From: an uncultured Pseudomonadales bacterium
GTDB taxonomy: Bacteria; Patescibacteriota; Microgenomatia; UBA1400; CAYXSR01
Length of the DNA stretch: 60,546 nt
Assembly: GCA_964467735.1 (NCBI GenBank)
Contig: CAYXSR010000005.1
Location: 1 to 60,546 of the forward strand
Direction of reading: 5' to 3'
This document shows, one piece after another, positions 6,504 through 25,321 of the stretch (position 1 is its first letter; the number at the start of each line of letters is the position of its first letter). The translations under genes were made by a program, and so were the position numbers. The notes beneath the pieces were generated by a model that was not told the DNA's origin, made no database searches, and saw nothing but the letters and a program-made list of their open reading frames with translations.

Positions 6504-8051
6504 ATGAAGTTAAAAAATTTTGTTTTTCTAGTTATTGGTTTTCTTTTTTTATTGTCGGCTTCTTTCTTTCCTGTTTATGCCCAAGGCCTCCAACAACAAA
6601 TTAAAGATACGCCTTTTAAAGAATTTCTTGATGCTTCAGCTAAAGGAGAAGAGGGCTATCTTAATAAACAATGGTATGATAAAGAAACTTTTATAAATAT
6701 TATTGCTGCTGGTGCGGCAGCTTCGGCTACTGTTCAACCAAACGAAGATGGAACAGTTACTGTAAGCGGTGCTGTTCCCCTTATGGGCAGAGCAATTAGT
6801 GAATTGACTGGCACTCCGGCAGTTAGCAGTGTTGAGTATTTTGCTGATATTGGCAGTCGATTAAATTTAGTTCCTCAGGCTTATGCTCAAGGAACTGGTT
6901 GGCGGGCACTGGCTCCAATTTTAAGCATTTGGAAGGCTTTTCGAAATTTGGCTTATATATTTTTTGTGGTTGTCTTTATTGTGATTGGTTTTATGATTAT
7001 GTTCCGGGCAAAAATTAACCCTCAAACCGTTATTTCTATTCAATCAGCCCTTCCCAAAATTATTGTCACTTTGCTTCTAATTACTTTTTCCTATGCAATT
7101 GCTGGTTTGTTTATTGATTTTATCTATATTCTTATTTATATTGTCGTTGGTCTTTTTGAATTTACCGATCTTGTTTCTAACTCCACGGAAGTTGTCAGAA
7201 GACTGCTAGAAGATAATCTCTTTCAAATTATGTACGCTGGAAAAGGCATCTTTATTACTGGGCCAGCGGAGGCAATTCAAGATGTGATTGCCGGACTCTT
7301 AGGAGAAGGAGTTTTTGGGGAATTTTTAGATTGGTTAGGAGTAGATAACTTTGGCGGCAGTATTTTAGCTCATCTTATTATCGCCGCAGCTTTGCTTTTT
7401 GTTGTTTTTAAACTATTTTTTACCCTCTTACTTACCTATGTTGGTATTATTGTTTCAGTTATTTTTTCGCCAATTATTCTTTTGTTTAATGCTTTACCAG
7501 GTAGTAATAGTTTTGGTAATTGGGTTAAAAGTCTTTTAGCTAATATTTTAGCTTTTCCAGCAGTGGCTTTAATGTTTTTACTGGCGGCCGTTATTATTGG
7601 TAACCGGACCAACATGAATCCTCCTTGTGATCCAGGCTGTTCTAAGGATAACCCTTGGTGTGTAGAATGTGATGTTGGCTACTTTAGCCAAAGGACGCTT
7701 GATCTTAGGGCTGGCCAAGAAACCGGCTCTGGAGAATCGGAGGTTTGGGTACCACCTTTTTTAAGTTTGTTTACTAGAACTGGCAGTACTGGCGGTACTG
7801 GTCCAATTATGTCAATTATTGCTTTGGGAATGATTTTCATGACCGCTCAAGTTCCTGCCATGATTAAAAAAGTCATGGGTGTTGAGGAAGGTGCTGGCGC
7901 GATGGGCTTCCAGGCAATTGCTGGTGGTATTGCTGCTCCATTCCAAACTTATGGCGCATATAAACAATATCGTGAGCAAAGACGAGCCAGGATGCTAACT
8001 GAGGCTCAACTTAACGCTTACAAAGAACGAGGCACTGGCCTAGGTGCATAA
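6504..8051 (+). CDS. TrbL/VirB6-like polytopic membrane protein
   Basis: Multi-TM core (WKAFRNLAY...PKIIVTLLLITFSYAIAG...IFSPIILLFNALPG...WVKSLLANILAFP) with a Gly/Ala-rich tail, following the pilin array. Confidence 0.72.
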   Translation: MKLKNFVFLVIGFLFLLSASFFPVYAQGLQQQIKDTPFKEFLDASAKGEEGYLNKQWYDKETFINIIAAGAAASATVQPNEDGTVTVSGAVPLMGRAISELTGTPAVSSVEYFADIGSRLNLVPQAYAQGTGWRALAPILSIWKAFRNLAYIFFVVVFIVIGFMIMFRAKINPQTVISIQSALPKIIVTLLLITFSYAIAGLFIDFIYILIYIVVGLFEFTDLVSNSTEVVRRLLEDNLFQIMYAGKGIFITGPAEAIQDVIAGLLGEGVFGEFLDWLGVDNFGGSILAHLIIAAALLFVVFKLFFTLLLTYVGIIVSVIFSPIILLFNALPGSNSFGNWVKSLLANILAFPAVALMFLLAAVIIGNRTNMNPPCDPGCSKDNPWCVECDVGYFSQRTLDLRAGQETGSGESEVWVPPFLSLFTRTGSTGGTGPIMSIIALGMIFMTAQVPAMIKKVMGVEEGAGAMGFQAIAGGIAAPFQTYGAYKQYREQRRARMLTEAQLNAYKERGTGLGA

Positions 8052-8064
8052 ATTATTTTCTCCT

Positions 8065-8167
8065 TGAATAAAAAAACAGAAAAGCTGGAAGTTAAAACTT
8101 CTTATTGTGGTGATCAACACAATAATCGCCTAAAGCGACAGCTTTCCCAAGATAGATCACTTATTCA
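8065..8167. ncRNA. Unassigned highly structured element: enclosing stem + perfect four-way junction + pseudoknot
   Basis: P1 8065-71/8161-67; P2 8081-87/8139-45; P3 8088-91/8098-101; P4 8102-09/8118-25; P5 8126-29/8135-38; PK 8110-15/8155-60. All 36 pairs are Watson-Crick. Strand is not determinable. Confidence 0.6.
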
Positions 8168-8209
8168 GTTTGTCTGCTTCTCAAAAGGACCGCTTCCTTC
8201 GGCTCAGTC

Positions 8210-8371
8210 CTACCCCCGTCCAAGCATTCCCTTGACCAGGGGGGCTACGAACGCTCCTACCACCGCCACCCCAAAAATGAAAAGGATGGACCCACAACAG
8301 CCAGCAAGCCCCCACTCTGTAGTTGCCATAATCACGATATACATGGCAACAAAGAGAAGCAAGGTTTCCAT
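8210..8371 (-). CDS. 53-aa hydrophobic membrane peptide (METLLLFVAM...GMLGRG)
   Basis: SD GAGGAGG just upstream of ATG 8371 within ORF-track frame 8210..8578; two hydrophobic helices. Confidence 0.6.
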   Translation of the reverse strand: METLLLFVAMYIVIMATTEWGLAGCCGSILFIFGVAVVGAFVAPLVKGMLGRG

Positions 8372-8388
8372 CACATCCTCCTCTAGGT

Positions 8389-8598
8389 TTATTTCCACCA
8401 TGAACCTTTTCCAATGGCGTAAATGACTAGTCCTATCACTAGTCCTACCAAAAGAAAAACTCCACCGATCAGATAGGACACCGCGCCGTACTCTGGTGGT
8501 GCAACAAAGAAAAAATAGACGATGCCGCCGCCCCAGCAGTACAGTAGGGCTGCAACAACTAAAACAACCAACAACCAAAATCCGATGCCACTTCCCAT
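8389..8598 (-). CDS. 69-aa two-TM membrane peptide
   Basis: SD AGGAG 7 nt upstream of the ATG; two hydrophobic helices and a basic C-terminus (GKGSWWK). Confidence 0.65.
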   Translation of the reverse strand: MGSGIGFWLLVVLVVAALLYCWGGGIVYFFFVAPPEYGAVSYLIGGVFLLVGLVIGLVIYAIGKGSWWK

Positions 8599-8623
8599 TT
8601 CCGTTCTCCTTTTTAAGGTGCTC

Positions 8624-8651
8624 GTCTACCCGCCATCAGAGGCGGGCAGGC
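8624..8651. repeat. GC-rich palindromic hairpin (GTCTACCCGCC-atcaga-GGCGGGCAGGC), REP-like
   Basis: 11-bp imperfect inverted repeat in an otherwise AT-rich leader. Confidence 0.5.
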
Positions 8652-8719
8652 AAAAACTGAACAATTCTTTTTCTTTCTATCCAAACGCCATTGTTTGGAA
8701 AAGAAATAAGATTGACGGG

Positions 8720-8748
8720 ATTATATAGTTAAAACCATTATAAATCAA
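8720..8748 (-). promoter_or_regulatory. Sigma70 promoter TTGATT-N17-TATAAT for the small-peptide operon
   Basis: -35 at 8743-8748 and -10 at 8720-8725 on the minus strand. Confidence 0.6.
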
Positions 8749-23231: not shown

Positions 23232-25321
23232 TTAATTTACCTTTTTTAAATCAACTAACCAAATCTGGAAAATCAAAAAATAAAACTCCTGAAAAAAAAG
23301 AGTCAATTCAAGTTCTCTCTCAGGGTCTAGTTTCTGTAAAAGATGTCATTGCCCCTCCAGCCCTAGAAGTAGACTTTAATCACATTAAAATTGGCGATAA
23401 TTTTTTTAGAACTTTTTTCGTTGCTGGATATCCTCGTTTTGTAAATGCCAATTGGCTAGCCCCTTTAATAAACTTTGACCACTCATTAGATATTGCCATG
23501 TATATTTATCCTGCTGAAGGAAAAGGAATTCTAGAAAACCTTAAAAGAAAAATTGGTGAGATGGAAGCAGAAATTCAAACAGATGTCCAAAGAGGAAGAG
23601 TAATTAACATTGATACCCAGGTTAAATTGGAGGATGCTCGAGCTTTACAAGAACAATTAGCAAAAGGAGCGGAAAGATTTTTTCAATTTGCTCTTTATAT
23701 TACAGTTCCTGAAGAAACAGAAAAGGAACTGAATAATGTTTCTCAAAAAGTCCAATCAACTTTAGGCTCTCTTTTAATTGTCGCTAAACCAGCTACTCTT
23801 CAGATGGAAGAAGCTTTTAAAACAACCCTTCCAACATGCCAAGACAAATTAATGATAACTAGAAACATGGATACCACTTCTTTGGCCACAACTTTTCCTT
23901 TTACTTCCTCAGAACTTACTGATAATAAAGGAATATTATATGGAATTAATGAACACAATGATTCATTAATCGTTTTTGATCGATTTACGATGGAAAATGC
24001 CAATTCTTTAATTTTAGCCAAATCTGGTGCTGGTAAAAGCTATCTCGTTAAACTGGAAGCCTTAAGGTCTTTAATGTTTGACACTGAAGTTATCATCATT
24101 GATCCAGAAGCTGAATATCAAAACCTCACTAAGGCAGTGAATGGAGAATACATTAGTTTCTCCTTCTCCTCTCCTGCCAAAATTAATCCCTTTGACCTCT
24201 CTGGTGTTTTTGAGAAGGGAGAAAATGAATTAAGTATGAAAATTCTTTCTCTCCACTCTCTTTTTAAAATTATTATGGGTCAACTCACCCCTATTGAAGA
24301 AGCTTTATTAGATAAAGCCTTGGTTTTAACCTACCAACAGAAAGGGATTACTACTGATCCTGCTACCCAAACTAAAGAGCCTCCTCTAATGGAAGATTTA
24401 TACAAAATTCTTATTGGGATGGAAGATCCCCAAGCCAAAAGTATGGCTGCTAGACTAGAAAAATTTATAAAAGGCTCTCTAAAAGGAATTTTTAATCAAC
24501 ACTCTACCGTTAGTTTAAAAAATCCATTTACCGTTTTTTCTATCAGAGAATTAGAAGCAGAGCTTAGACCAGTAGCGATGTTTATCCTCTTAGATTATGT
24601 CTGGACAAAAATTAAAAAACAGTTAAAAAAACGACTTTTAATTGTTGATGAAGCTTGGTATTTAATGAAACATAAAGATTCTGCCGATTTCCTTTATAGT
24701 CTAGCTAAAAGGGCTAGAAAATATTATCTTGGGTTAACAACTATTACTCAAGATGTAGAAGATTTCATGAATAGTGAATATGGTAAAGCTATTATTACTA
24801 ATTCTTCTATTCAAATATTAATGAAACAATCGCCAGCAGCCATTGATCTTTTAGCAAAGGTTTTTTATTTATCTCAAGGAGAAAAGAACCTTTTACTTGC
24901 TTCTGAAATTGGCCGAGGAATCTTTTTTGCTGGAAACAATCATGTAGCTATGAGAGTTGTTGCTTCTCCGGAAGAACATCAAATTATTACCTCTAAACCA
25001 CAAGAGTTAATTCAACAACAAAAAGGAACTGCCTCTCCCACTCAAGCTCAAAATCAAACACCGGTTAATAAAACTCCAGTTTCTGTTTCGCAAAATACAG
25101 AAGTTTCTCCTTCTTTAGGGACAGTAAGTTCTCCAGTGGCAAAAAAAGAACTACCTCTTCAATCTTCTACTAGACAGAATAAACCGTTTTTCTACGTCGA
25201 TACTGAAACTTCAGAAAAAAAATCACCCTCTTCTCCATTAGACCAAAAACAAACAAATCCCCGTTCAACTGAAGTCTTTTCTCAAAAAAAAACTAACAAT
25301 CCTTCTAGCTCTCAACCCTAA
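23228..25321 (+). CDS. virB4: VirB4/TraC-family T4SS ATPase
   Basis: Walker A AKSGAGKS, Walker B LLIVDEAW, RARKYYLGLTTITQDVEDF; low-complexity S/Q/T/P tail. Confidence 0.92.
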   Translation: MINLPFLNQLTKSGKSKNKTPEKKESIQVLSQGLVSVKDVIAPPALEVDFNHIKIGDNFFRTFFVAGYPRFVNANWLAPLINFDHSLDIAMYIYPAEGKGILENLKRKIGEMEAEIQTDVQRGRVINIDTQVKLEDARALQEQLAKGAERFFQFALYITVPEETEKELNNVSQKVQSTLGSLLIVAKPATLQMEEAFKTTLPTCQDKLMITRNMDTTSLATTFPFTSSELTDNKGILYGINEHNDSLIVFDRFTMENANSLILAKSGAGKSYLVKLEALRSLMFDTEVIIIDPEAEYQNLTKAVNGEYISFSFSSPAKINPFDLSGVFEKGENELSMKILSLHSLFKIIMGQLTPIEEALLDKALVLTYQQKGITTDPATQTKEPPLMEDLYKILIGMEDPQAKSMAARLEKFIKGSLKGIFNQHSTVSLKNPFTVFSIRELEAELRPVAMFILLDYVWTKIKKQLKKRLLIVDEAWYLMKHKDSADFLYSLAKRARKYYLGLTTITQDVEDFMNSEYGKAIITNSSIQILMKQSPAAIDLLAKVFYLSQGEKNLLLASEIGRGIFFAGNNHVAMRVVASPEEHQIITSKPQELIQQQKGTASPTQAQNQTPVNKTPVSVSQNTEVSPSLGTVSSPVAKKELPLQSSTRQNKPFFYVDTETSEKKSPSSPLDQKQTNPRSTEVFSQKKTNNPSSSQP

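What the first reader, a model, noticed from the sequence alone, without database searches (positions are those of the whole stretch)
8065..8167. Unannotated four-way-junction element with enclosing stem and pseudoknot, between VirB6 and a small-peptide operon
Seen in sequence: TGAATAA(8065-71) pairs with TTATTCA(8161-67). AAAGCTG(8081-87) pairs with CAGCTTT(8139-45) and encloses three hairpins with zero linker nucleotides: GAAG/CTTC, TTATTGTG/CACAATAA and TCGC/GCGA. The middle loop GTGATC(8110-15) is complementary to GATCAC(8155-60), which abuts the 3' arm of the outer stem, forming a pseudoknot able to stack on P1. That is 36 Watson-Crick pairs in 103 nt of AT-rich spacer. The 7-bp inner stem is followed by C-CCA (8146-49), a tRNA-like 3' end, but no T- or D-loop consensus is present. 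The middle loop also contains the palindrome TGATCA. I do not recognise it as any known riboswitch, ribozyme or tRNA. Inference: a novel structured ncRNA or cis element tied to the CPR T4SS locus, or a ssDNA cruciform, since both strands fold equally.
Basis: partly seen in the sequence, partly recalled or inferred. Interest (0 to 1): 0.92.

Follow-up and report, generated by a model that had tools for sequence, protein, structure and literature searches.

The report
Conserved pseudoknotted RNA ending small-gene transcripts
The fold is real and belongs to a previously uncatalogued, rare RNA family of Microgenomates-type bacteria, but it most likely works on the opposite strand as the structured, U-tailed 3' end of small-protein messages, and it has no general link to the secretion locus or to tRNA.

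Summary
Both strands fold into the four-way junction better than all 200 shuffles, z -3.9 and -3.6.

I found about 20 homologues: a second copy in this genome (contig C12), 12 of 401 genomes of the class, and 2 hits in other classes of the phylum. On 15 sequences, 92.6% of pair cells are standard pairs (slid controls 37-50%). 30 of 33 pairs change on both sides. The pseudoknot was not in the search model and still covaries at 5 of 7 pairs.

The outer stem (8065-71/8161-67) and the 'CCCA' end occur only in the window copy. There is no tRNA and no Rfam family. In the other genomes VirB4-like genes lie far away or on other contigs.

G·U counts, a co-directional ORF ending just upstream in nearly every locus examined, and a U-rich tail after the enclosing stem all point to the window's minus strand. 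A conserved box before the fold is complementary to a 5'-UTR box in 6-8 loci, with covariation.

Best reading: a terminator/3'-stabiliser domain of small-ORF mRNAs. The function is inferred, and no RNA data could be obtained.

The parts
8078..8148 (-). Core four-way junction. The enclosing stem P1 (RNA 5' arm GGGAAAGCUG 8148->8139, 3' arm CAGCUUUUCU 8087->8078) surrounds three hairpins.
   Evidence: MFE fold. P1 is 98.7% paired and all 10 pairs change on both sides across 15 homologues. In the window copy P1 reaches 10 bp only on the minus strand, through two G·U pairs.
8126..8138 (-). Hairpin a, the first hairpin on the RNA: UCGC-UUUAG-GCGA.
   Evidence: 100% paired, 4 of 4 pairs covary, for example UCGC/GCGA versus CUGG/CCAG versus CUCC/GGAG. 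The loop is variable.
8102..8125 (-). Hairpin b, the middle hairpin. Its 8-nt loop UUGAUCAC (8117->8110) carries the pseudoknot acceptor GAUCAC (8115->8110).
   Evidence: The top 5 bp are conserved and covary (pairs 77-81 with 90-94). The lower 3 bp are paired only in the window copy.
8088..8101 (-). Hairpin c: GAAG-UUUUAA-CUUC.
   Evidence: 91% paired, 5 of 5 pairs covary. The GAAG/CUUC sequence is kept in most close relatives.
8155..8160 (-). 5' strand of the pseudoknot (GUGAUC), which pairs with the loop of hairpin b.
   Evidence: The pseudoknot was not part of any covariance model, yet it is 92.3% paired in 15 sequences and 5 of 7 pairs change on both sides. Examples: GUGAUC/GAUCAC, GUGACC/GGUCAC, GUGGCAA/UUGCCAC, GUAGC/GCUAC, GUGGG/CCCAC.
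8161..8172 (-). Box2 (CAAACUGAAUAA).
   Evidence: AACUGAAUAAGUG is nearly invariant in the aligned members. It is complementary to a 5'-UTR box in 6-8 loci.
8065..8077 (-). U-rich tail after P1 (GUUUUUUUAUUCA).
   Evidence: The first 10 nt after P1 are 67% U across 15 members, against 30% in the element overall. Runs of 4-7 U occur in 11 of 15. The outer-stem complementarity is seen only in this copy.
8654..8664 (-). Box1 (UUGUUCAGUUU) in the 5' UTR, complementary to box2 over 11 bp including one G·U.
   Evidence: In the window alone the duplex is not significant (7 of 40 shuffles reach it). However, it sits at the same position behind the conserved leader hairpin as in C12, G022 and L023, where z is -3.5 to -5.2.
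8681..8698 (-). Conserved 5'-leader hairpin CCAAAC-AAUGGC-GUUUGG.
   Evidence: The same hairpin with an AANNGC loop and compensatory stems is found in C12, G022, L023, L073 and L075. The window leader folds with z -4.4.
8720..8748 (-). Promoter-like site TTGATT-17 nt-TATAAT of the small-ORF unit.
   Evidence: Read from the sequence. The tool's scan covered only 7900-8500, so this rests on inspection.
8210..8598 (-). Two Shine-Dalgarno-led small hydrophobic ORFs (69 aa at 8598->8389, 53 aa at 8371->8210) lying between box1 and box2.
   Evidence: ORF list and sequence. No Pfam match.

Best explanation
The element is the 3'-terminal structured domain of a transcription unit read on the window's MINUS strand. 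The unit runs in this order:
1. a promoter-like site (8748-8720);
2. a structured leader with box1;
3. two small ORFs;
4. box2 (8172-8161);
5. the pseudoknot strand (8160-8155);
6. a four-way junction (8148-8078);
7. a U-rich tail (8077-8065).

Shown:
- The junction and the pseudoknot are conserved by covariation in about 20 loci of Microgenomatia and a few other Patescibacteria.
- A co-directional ORF ends within about 60 nt upstream in nearly every locus examined. It is a 53-92 aa ORF in most. Exceptions: a 307-aa ORF before one copy in G261, a 482-aa ORF overlapping the model start in L080, and only a doubtful ORF in L074.
- A U-rich tract follows the enclosing stem.
- Box2 is complementary to a 5'-UTR box in a subset of loci.

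Inferred:
- P1 plus the U tract stops, or attenuates, transcription after the small ORF.
- The compact pseudoknotted fold blocks 3' exonucleases. The small-ORF message would then be stable and abundant relative to whatever lies downstream.
- Where box1 is present, box1:box2 pairing abuts the pseudoknot helix with a 0-2 nt gap and closes the mRNA into a loop.
For: - Homologues and covariation. Pair counts are (MAFFT-only alignment of 7 sequences: 93.8% paired, 15 pairs with double changes; 15 sequences: 92.6% paired against 37-50% when slid, 30 of 33 pairs with double changes).
- Strand, by wobble pairs: G·U 11 versus A·C 6 on the minus-strand reading. Most A·C cells sit at pairs that are usually unpaired anyway. 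In L076 a wobble inside the 5-bp middle stem would be a C·A mismatch on the other strand.
- Strand, by context: upstream ORFs are co-directional in all loci. They are truly coding, with codon-position differences of 12/14/42 between G022 and L023.
- U-rich tail.
- Tandem modules: in G261, L023 and L046 modules repeat in tandem. In L023 both modules, and in G261 the first, carry their own box1 and Shine-Dalgarno sequence.
- Equivalent 3' end: in the first L023 module, box2 is followed by a different fold ending in an ordinary hairpin plus U run. This suggests the 3' parts are interchangeable transcript ends.
- Downstream genes differ (HExxH protein, M16 peptidase, LexA, or none) and are convergent in the window and in L073.
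- Box1:box2 pairing is significant in 5 loci (0 of 40 shuffles reach it), weaker in L075 (3 of 40). It covaries: A-U becomes C-G in L075 and U·G in L073.
Against: - No transcript data.
- P1 is AU-rich next to the U tract and encloses about 60 nt with three hairpins. This is atypical for an intrinsic terminator. In the L073-L075 clade the tail is mixed U/C.
- Folding energies do not favour the minus strand: summed MFE is -358.9 against -374.8 kcal/mol for the opposite strand.
- One member (L074) has a better pseudoknot on the opposite strand.
- Termination and stabilisation alone do not explain why so elaborate a fold and an invariant box2 are kept.
- Box1 is missing in about two thirds of the loci.
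Confidence: 0.5

Rival explanations
1. Regulated attenuator: a riboswitch-like or protein-responsive sensor. A ligand or protein would stabilise the pseudoknotted junction and so set how much transcription reads through P1 and the U tract into the downstream gene (HExxH or M16 peptidase genes in several loci).
For: The fold is complex, with a pseudoknot and conserved junction nucleotides (UAN and NA flanking hairpin b). The U tract comes directly after P1. In the G022 group a covarying alternative hairpin (P5) overlaps 2 nt of the pseudoknot and 3 nt of P1, which hints at a switch. A co-directional peptidase-like gene starts 20-80 nt downstream in C12, G022, L027, L077 and L078.
Against: The downstream gene is not conserved and is convergent or absent in the window and in L073. 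The constant partner is the upstream ORF. There is no similarity to any Rfam riboswitch. Hairpin loops a and c are freely variable.
Confidence: 0.15
2. 3'-UTR-derived trans-acting small RNA. The roughly 115-nt piece (box2 as a 5' seed, a structured body, a U tail) would be released and pair with box1-type leaders of the same or sister modules.
For: The layout of seed, structured body and U-tailed end is that of classical bacterial sRNAs. Box2 is conserved even where no box1 lies in cis. Several genomes carry 2-3 modules with similar boxes.
Against: No promoter or processing site is evident before box2. In this genome only the two modules' own box1 sites match. There is no expression data.
Confidence: 0.12
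3. Plus-strand RNA, in the reader's orientation. This would be an antisense sRNA convergent with, and overlapping, the 3' end of the small-ORF mRNA. The layout would match the 3'-overlapping type I antitoxins of Bacillus (RatA/txpA, SR4/bsrG; from my own knowledge). Alternatively it would be a tRNA-like ncRNA.
For: All helices are nearly pure Watson-Crick, so the + strand folds the same way, and its energies are slightly better. The L074 pseudoknot pairs fully only on this strand. The window ORFs are small hydrophobic peptides.
Against: G·U pairs turn into A·C mismatches on this strand, including inside a 5-bp stem. The conserved tract would be an A run before P1, which has no known role. CCA and the outer stem are not conserved. 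No tRNA is found. Most partner ORFs are soluble 69-92 aa proteins, not toxin-like.
Confidence: 0.1
4. DNA-level element. The fold would form in single-stranded DNA as a recombination or transfer site (attC-like or oriT-like), or box1 and box2 would be the inverted repeats of an invertible segment.
For: Box1 and box2 are inverted repeats 395-655 bp apart that flank variable cargo ORFs. Modules occur in tandem arrays. The window copy lies inside a T4SS locus.
Against: In every locus that has both boxes, the cargo has the same orientation relative to the promoter, so no inverted state was captured. There is no linkage to T4SS genes elsewhere. No integron-type R/L boxes were seen in P1. A loop-to-flank pseudoknot and a U tail fit RNA better.
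Confidence: 0.05
5. Self-cleaving ribozyme or RNase processing signal that cuts the polycistronic RNA after the small ORF.
For: Compact junction plus pseudoknot in an intercistronic position.
Against: No match to twister, twister-sister, hairpin, hammerhead, pistol or hatchet models in Rfam, even at E up to 10. The helices lack conserved internal loops. A terminator-like tail argues against a cleavage role, as was argued for comparable motifs in PMC5737381.
Confidence: 0.05

Closest known systems
Orphan structured bacterial RNA motifs with 3' terminators and a link to a neighbouring gene (DUF3800-I, drum, FuFi-1, skipping-rope; Weinberg et al. 2017, PMC5737381)
   Same: A complex covarying fold, followed by a terminator-like end. 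It is rarely in a 5' UTR of a conserved gene class, it is associated with a nearby (here upstream) gene, and its function is unknown.
   Different: No sequence or structure match to any of them in Rfam. The terminator stem here is the enclosing stem of the junction itself. The taxon differs (Microgenomatia).
Intercistronic or 3' stabiliser-attenuator hairpins that set stoichiometry within operons (puf operon hairpins, REP after malE, terminators after lantibiotic precursor genes such as nisA). This comparison rests on my own knowledge.
   Same: Sits right after a small, presumably abundant gene product and before, or instead of, downstream genes. It has a U-rich 3' side. It recurs after successive genes in tandem clusters.
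   Different: Those are simple hairpins. This is a four-way junction locked by a pseudoknot, with a conserved sequence box.
5'-3' UTR pairing in bacterial mRNAs (icaR of S. aureus, hbs of B. subtilis, hok fbi-tac, aapA1), cited from my own knowledge. The type I toxin folding principle is also summarised in the abstract of PMC11228461.
   Same: A 10-13 bp complementarity between a box near the 5' end or Shine-Dalgarno sequence and a box in the 3' region, with covariation. The window ORFs are small hydrophobic peptides.
   Different: Box1 is absent in about two thirds of the loci. Most cargo ORFs are not toxin-like. No antisense RNA was identified. Pairing does not cover the Shine-Dalgarno sequence in the window.
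Rfam RF02980 freshwater-2
   Same: Three consecutive hairpins, then a U run, AAGGAG and ATG on the minus strand of the window.
   Different: It scores 23.1 bits against a gathering score of 49.9 (E 0.34). None of six homologous loci hits it. Much of the exact letter identity in the printed alignment lies in the AAGGAGAAAA stretch, which belongs only to the window. I treat it as a chance resemblance.
tRNA and tRNA-like structures
   Same: Cloverleaf-like outline with a 7-10 bp enclosing stem and three arms.
   Different: No D- or T-loop consensus. The side loops are 3-8 nt and variable. The 'anticodon' loop is consumed by a pseudoknot. There is no conserved CCA. ARAGORN and the Rfam tRNA model are negative.

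Membership tests
tRNA / tRNA-like structure | Detected by tRNA models (cloverleaf with D- and T-loop consensus) | tested here: not met
   ARAGORN finds 0 genes in the whole window. There is no Rfam tRNA hit at E up to 10 in 7800-8500.
tRNA / tRNA-like structure | Conserved single-stranded NCCA 3' end after the acceptor stem | tested here: not met
   CCCA occurs only in the window copy. The others read CCAA, CTGA, CTAA, CCTA, CTTT and so on, and these bases pair as an extension of P1.
Rfam RF02980 freshwater-2 | Score at or above the curated gathering threshold | tested here: not met
   23.1 bits against 49.9. Homologues give no hit at E up to 5.
Any Rfam 15 family | cmscan match | tested here: not met
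   The only hits are unrelated ones elsewhere in the loci (tRNA, and a sub-threshold 6S).
Rho-independent (intrinsic) terminator | Stem immediately followed by a U-rich tract on the transcribed strand | tested here: met
   P1 is followed by 67% U in the next 10 nt over 15 members. Runs of 4-7 U occur in 11 of 15.
Rho-independent (intrinsic) terminator | Simple G+C-rich hairpin with a short loop | tested here: not met
   P1 encloses three hairpins (about 60 nt) and is AU-rich at its base. The tool's terminator scan reports only an inner hairpin.
Rho-independent (intrinsic) terminator | Transcripts end in the U tract | not testable with these tools
Pseudoknotted structured RNA (loop-to-flank pseudoknot) | Loop-flank pairing kept through compensatory changes | tested here: met
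   Of 7 pairs, 92.3% of cells are paired and 5 pairs change on both sides. The pseudoknot was not modelled in the CM.
Riboswitch | Lies in the 5' UTR of a consistent class of regulated genes | tested here: not met
   Downstream genes vary (HExxH protein, M16 peptidase, LexA, unknown) or are convergent.
Type I toxin mRNA with fold-back (hok-like) or 3'-overlapping antitoxin | Small hydrophobic toxin ORF | tested here: inconclusive
   The window has two hydrophobic ORFs of 69 and 53 aa. Most other members precede soluble Gly/Pro-rich proteins of 69-92 aa.
Type I toxin mRNA with fold-back (hok-like) or 3'-overlapping antitoxin | 5'-3' long-range pairing in the mRNA | tested here: inconclusive
   Significant in L018, L023, L072, L073 and L078 (0 of 40 shuffles reach it) and weaker in L075 (3 of 40). 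It is weak in the window (7 of 40 shuffles reach it) and absent in about 12 loci.
T4SS-linked element (oriT or T4SS regulator) | Consistent linkage to T4SS genes | tested here: not met
   VirB4-like hits in G022, G202, G215, G218, G222, G261 and G317 are on other contigs or 547-590 kb from the element.

The most novel reading that the evidence does not exclude
The junction and pseudoknot would be a new functional RNA class specific to Patescibacteria. It would be a sensor or protein platform at the 3' end that docks onto the 5' leader through box1:box2 stacked on the pseudoknot, controlling translation, decay or read-through of small-protein cassettes. That would be a bacterial counterpart of the closed-loop 3' elements of plant RNA viruses, or a 3'-located riboswitch.
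Probability: 0.2. Interest if true: 0.8.

Novelty: new variant of a known kind. Interest (0 to 1): 0.6.

Why it matters
Very few structured RNAs are known from candidate-phyla-radiation (CPR) bacteria. Their gene regulation is almost unexplored because they are uncultured.

This is a well-supported new RNA family. The four-way junction and pseudoknot covary at nearly every pair. The family marks the 3' end of small-protein genes. Many of these proteins share an uncharacterised motif and sit beside M16 or HExxH peptidase genes.

If the element sets transcript ends and stability, it explains how these tiny genomes tune small-protein output. If it is a sensor or a 5'-3' closing device, it would be a new regulatory principle for bacteria.

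It also corrects the idea that this is a T4SS-specific or tRNA-like element.

Tried and rejected
- Rfam at permissive thresholds on the window and on six homologous loci gave only a sub-threshold, non-recurring freshwater-2 hit.
- ARAGORN found nothing.
- The outer stem and the CCA are not conserved.
- T4SS linkage was rejected.
- CM hits in G175 and G010 lie inside long ORFs and were discarded. L081, L082 and L084 are partial or decayed copies.
- I tested whether the G+C-rich stretch next to the element is a larger ncRNA rather than genes. It was rejected for the 78-80 aa ORFs by codon-position bias. The '86-aa ORF' of G022 is probably non-coding leader, because its frame is broken in L023.
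- Deciding the strand by folding energy was inconclusive and went slightly the other way.
- The weak hairpin plus UUUU right after the 53-aa ORF (8211-8184) is no better than shuffles (z 0.33), so it is unlikely to end the transcript before the element.
- Box2 read as a promoter: I saw no acceptable -10 hexamer (inspection only).
- Box2 as a three-frame stop block: not conserved, for example in L076.
- Trans targets of box2 in this genome: none beyond the two modules.
- Pfam on neighbouring proteins mostly returned nothing.
- Literature searches found no description of this motif. One search failed on syntax.

Full report
**1. The observation**

These are the outer stem 8065-71/8161-67 and the inner stem 8081-87/8139-45. 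There are three abutting hairpins at 8088-8101, 8102-8125 and 8126-8138. The 6-nt complementarity lies between the middle loop (8110-15) and 8155-60.

RNAfold returns this four-way junction as the minimum-energy fold on both strands. The z-scores are -3.91 (+) and -3.57 (-), and no shuffle of 200 does as well.

The region is convergent. A 515-aa ORF on the + strand ends at 8051, and small ORFs on the - strand end at 8210.

**2. It is not a catalogued RNA**

- ARAGORN finds no tRNA or tmRNA in the window.
- Rfam 15 at E up to 10 gives one weak minus-strand hit, freshwater-2, at 23.1 bits against a gathering score of 49.9.
- That hit is not reproduced by any of six homologous loci. Much of the exact letter identity in the printed alignment lies in an AAGGAGAAAA stretch private to the window. 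I treat it as chance.

**3. Homologues**

- A BLAST of the spacer against the window's own genome found a 69%-identical copy on contig C12. It shows visible compensatory changes.
- A covariance model built from the two copies found one more member in 201 genomes of the order (G022, 52.5 bits).
- Pattern scans of GTDB genomes and JGI metagenomes added a Microgenomates MAG (L023) and four metagenome contigs, one of them identical to G022.
- A second model found 12 of 401 genomes of the class.
- A third model found three tandem copies in G261 and two hits in other classes of the phylum.
- Hits inside long ORFs (G175, G010) were rejected.

The family is real, rare (about 3% of class genomes) and widely scattered.

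**4. Structure**

On a MAFFT-only alignment of 7 copies, 93.8% of pair cells are standard pairs and 15 pairs change on both sides.

On 15 sequences aligned to the model:
- 92.6% of pair cells are paired, against 37-50% when the 3' partner is slid by 1-3 columns.
- 30 of 33 pairs change on both sides, and no shuffle of 500 reaches the observed covariation score.
- P1 is 98.7% paired.
- The pseudoknot was not in the model, so it is an independent test. It is 92.3% paired and covaries at 5 of 7 pairs.
- Pseudoknot variants: GUGAUC/GAUCAC, GUGACC/GGUCAC, GUGACU/AGUCAC, GUGGCAA/UUGCCAC, GUAGC/GCUAC, GUGGG/CCCAC and GUGAG/CUCAC.

The bases read as CCA are the extension of P1 in the other copies. The family consensus also has a few unpaired nucleotides at the base of the middle hairpin rather than a perfect zero-linker junction.

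**5. Which strand**

Nearly all pairs are Watson-Crick, so both strands fold, and summed energies even slightly favour the + strand. Three other lines favour the window's minus strand.

- *Wobble pairs.* There are 11 G·U cells against 6 A·C cells. Four of the A·C cells sit at positions that are usually unpaired. The G·U cells include two that make the window's P1 10 bp long, as in its relatives, and one inside the 5-bp middle stem of L076.
- *Gene context.* In almost every locus examined an ORF on that strand ends within about 60 nt before the element. L080 (a 482-aa ORF overlapping the model start) and L074 (a doubtful ORF) are the exceptions. The 78-80 aa ORFs are genuinely coding, with differences by codon position of 12/14/42.
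- *U-rich tail.* The 10 nt after P1 are 67% U, against 30% overall.

L074 is a counter-example for the pseudoknot. I put the minus strand at about 0.8.

**6. The larger unit**

On the minus strand the window reads as follows:
- TTGATT-17-TATAAT (8748-8720);
- a leader that folds with z -4.4 and contains the hairpin CCAAAC-AAUGGC-GUUUGG (8698-8681);
- box1 UUGUUCAGUUU (8664-8654);
- two Shine-Dalgarno-led hydrophobic ORFs of 69 and 53 aa;
- box2 CAAACUGAAUAA (8172-8161);
- the pseudoknot strand, the junction and the U tail.

The same leader hairpin (AANNGC loop, compensatory stems) and box1 occur in C12, G022, L023 (twice), L073 and L075. L078 has box1 and an AGCAGC-loop hairpin downstream of it.

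Box1:box2 duplexes of 10-13 bp beat all 40 shuffles in five loci and show covariation. A-U becomes C-G in L075 and U·G in L073. In the window the duplex is 11 bp but not significant by itself. About two thirds of the loci lack box1, yet box2 is conserved in nearly all, so box2 must do something more than pair in cis.

Cargo ORFs vary. Many share a motif (..DG.(L/V)H....AIEANL...GG.CGQDP..) unknown to Pfam and very rare in protein databases.

Downstream genes also vary: HExxH proteins, M16 peptidases, LexA, or none. They are convergent in the window and in L073.

Modules occur in tandem in L023, L046 and G261. In the first L023 module, box2 is followed by a different fold that ends in a plain hairpin plus U run. 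This suggests that these 3' parts are interchangeable transcript ends.

**7. Not a T4SS element**

VirB4-like genes in seven other element-bearing genomes are on other contigs or 547-590 kb away. The second copy in this genome is on another contig.

**8. Mechanism**

Most likely (0.5) the domain ends, or attenuates, transcription after the small ORF and protects the 3' end. This would give a stable, abundant small-ORF message. Where box1 exists, the 5' leader pairs to box2 right next to the pseudoknot helix and closes the mRNA.

The fold, its conservation, the U tail and the context are shown. Termination, stabilisation and closure are inferred.

The rivals are:
- a regulated attenuator or 3' sensor (0.15);
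- a released sRNA with box2 as seed (0.12);
- a + strand antisense RNA (0.10);
- a DNA recombination or inversion site (0.05), which is disfavoured because no locus shows inverted cargo;
- a ribozyme or processing site (0.05).

**9. Comparison with known systems and novelty**

The nearest known kind is the set of orphan complex motifs with 3' terminators and a neighbouring-gene association described by Weinberg et al. (PMC5737381). From general knowledge, intercistronic stabiliser hairpins and the 5'-3' UTR pairings of icaR, hbs and hok are also comparable. The element is a member of none of these. It is a new family, and an unusual architectural variant of a 3'-end or terminator element.

**10. 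Limits**

R-scape was not available. The pair-count controls used here do not fully correct for phylogeny, and the 15-sequence alignment is fitted to the model for the nested helices, though not for the pseudoknot.

Noticed in passing
L018 1612-1848 (-), L023 6979-7620, L073 1264-1491, L075 1270-1500, L077 1250-1495, L078 1273-1482; C12 534-773: A family of 69-81 aa proteins sits directly upstream of the element. They share M(A/P)GP at the start and the motif ..DG.(L/V)H....AIEANL...GG.CGQDP... The family has no Pfam match and only 7 clusters in the large protein database. The genes often lie beside M16 (HxxEH) or HExxH peptidase genes, so they may be peptide precursors.
   Followed up: partly
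window 8600-8715 (-); L075 880-1270; L073 850-1264; L018 1850-2280 (-): The small ORFs have long, strongly structured leaders (up to about 400 nt). These contain recurring hairpins with AANNGC hexaloops (AAUGGC, AAAGGC, AACAGC, AAAAGC) and a second conserved block (AUCGAAGCC..GGGCGGAAAC...). The '86-aa ORF' of G022 in this stretch is frame-broken in L023 and is probably non-coding.
   Followed up: partly
L023 6160-6290 (+): The first of two tandem modules has the same leader and box2 (CCAAAACUGAAUAAG). It is followed by a different fold and an ordinary hairpin plus U-run terminator instead of the four-way junction.
   Followed up: partly
own genome contig C11 about 990-1050: A third box2-like sequence (reverse complement CUAAAACUGAAUAGUGAC) lies next to an AAAGGC-loop hairpin. 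No junction was detected by the model. It may be a degenerate or variant module.
   Followed up: no
L091 (G261:C1:59000-65500, minus strand): A cluster containing an M16 peptidase, two small ORFs (83 and 82 aa), and several paralogues of an unknown protein family with a ..(F/L)L.(S/A).(R/Y)DF..GKI.. motif. It is punctuated by three copies of the element, one of them after a 307-aa gene rather than a small one.
   Followed up: partly
window 8015-8062 (-): A strong Shine-Dalgarno sequence (AAGGAG) plus ATG follows the U tail. It opens only a 12-codon frame running antisense into the end of the 515-aa gene. It is probably chance or a remnant of a lost downstream gene. This stretch contributed much of the exact identity in the weak freshwater-2 hit.
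   Followed up: partly
A VirB4-like frame lies at 23582-23836 but scores below the family cut-off.
   Followed up: no
L022 / L018 (record CAYNMC010000004.1): The public record that carries the G022 copy is titled 'uncultured Pseudomonadales bacterium', yet the genome search places it in the same order as this Patescibacteria genome. It is likely a mislabelled MAG.
   Followed up: no
L023 2879-3035 (-): A 6S RNA match just below the gathering score (43.0 against 46.4 bits) lies next to two tRNA genes in the Microgenomates MAG.
   Followed up: no
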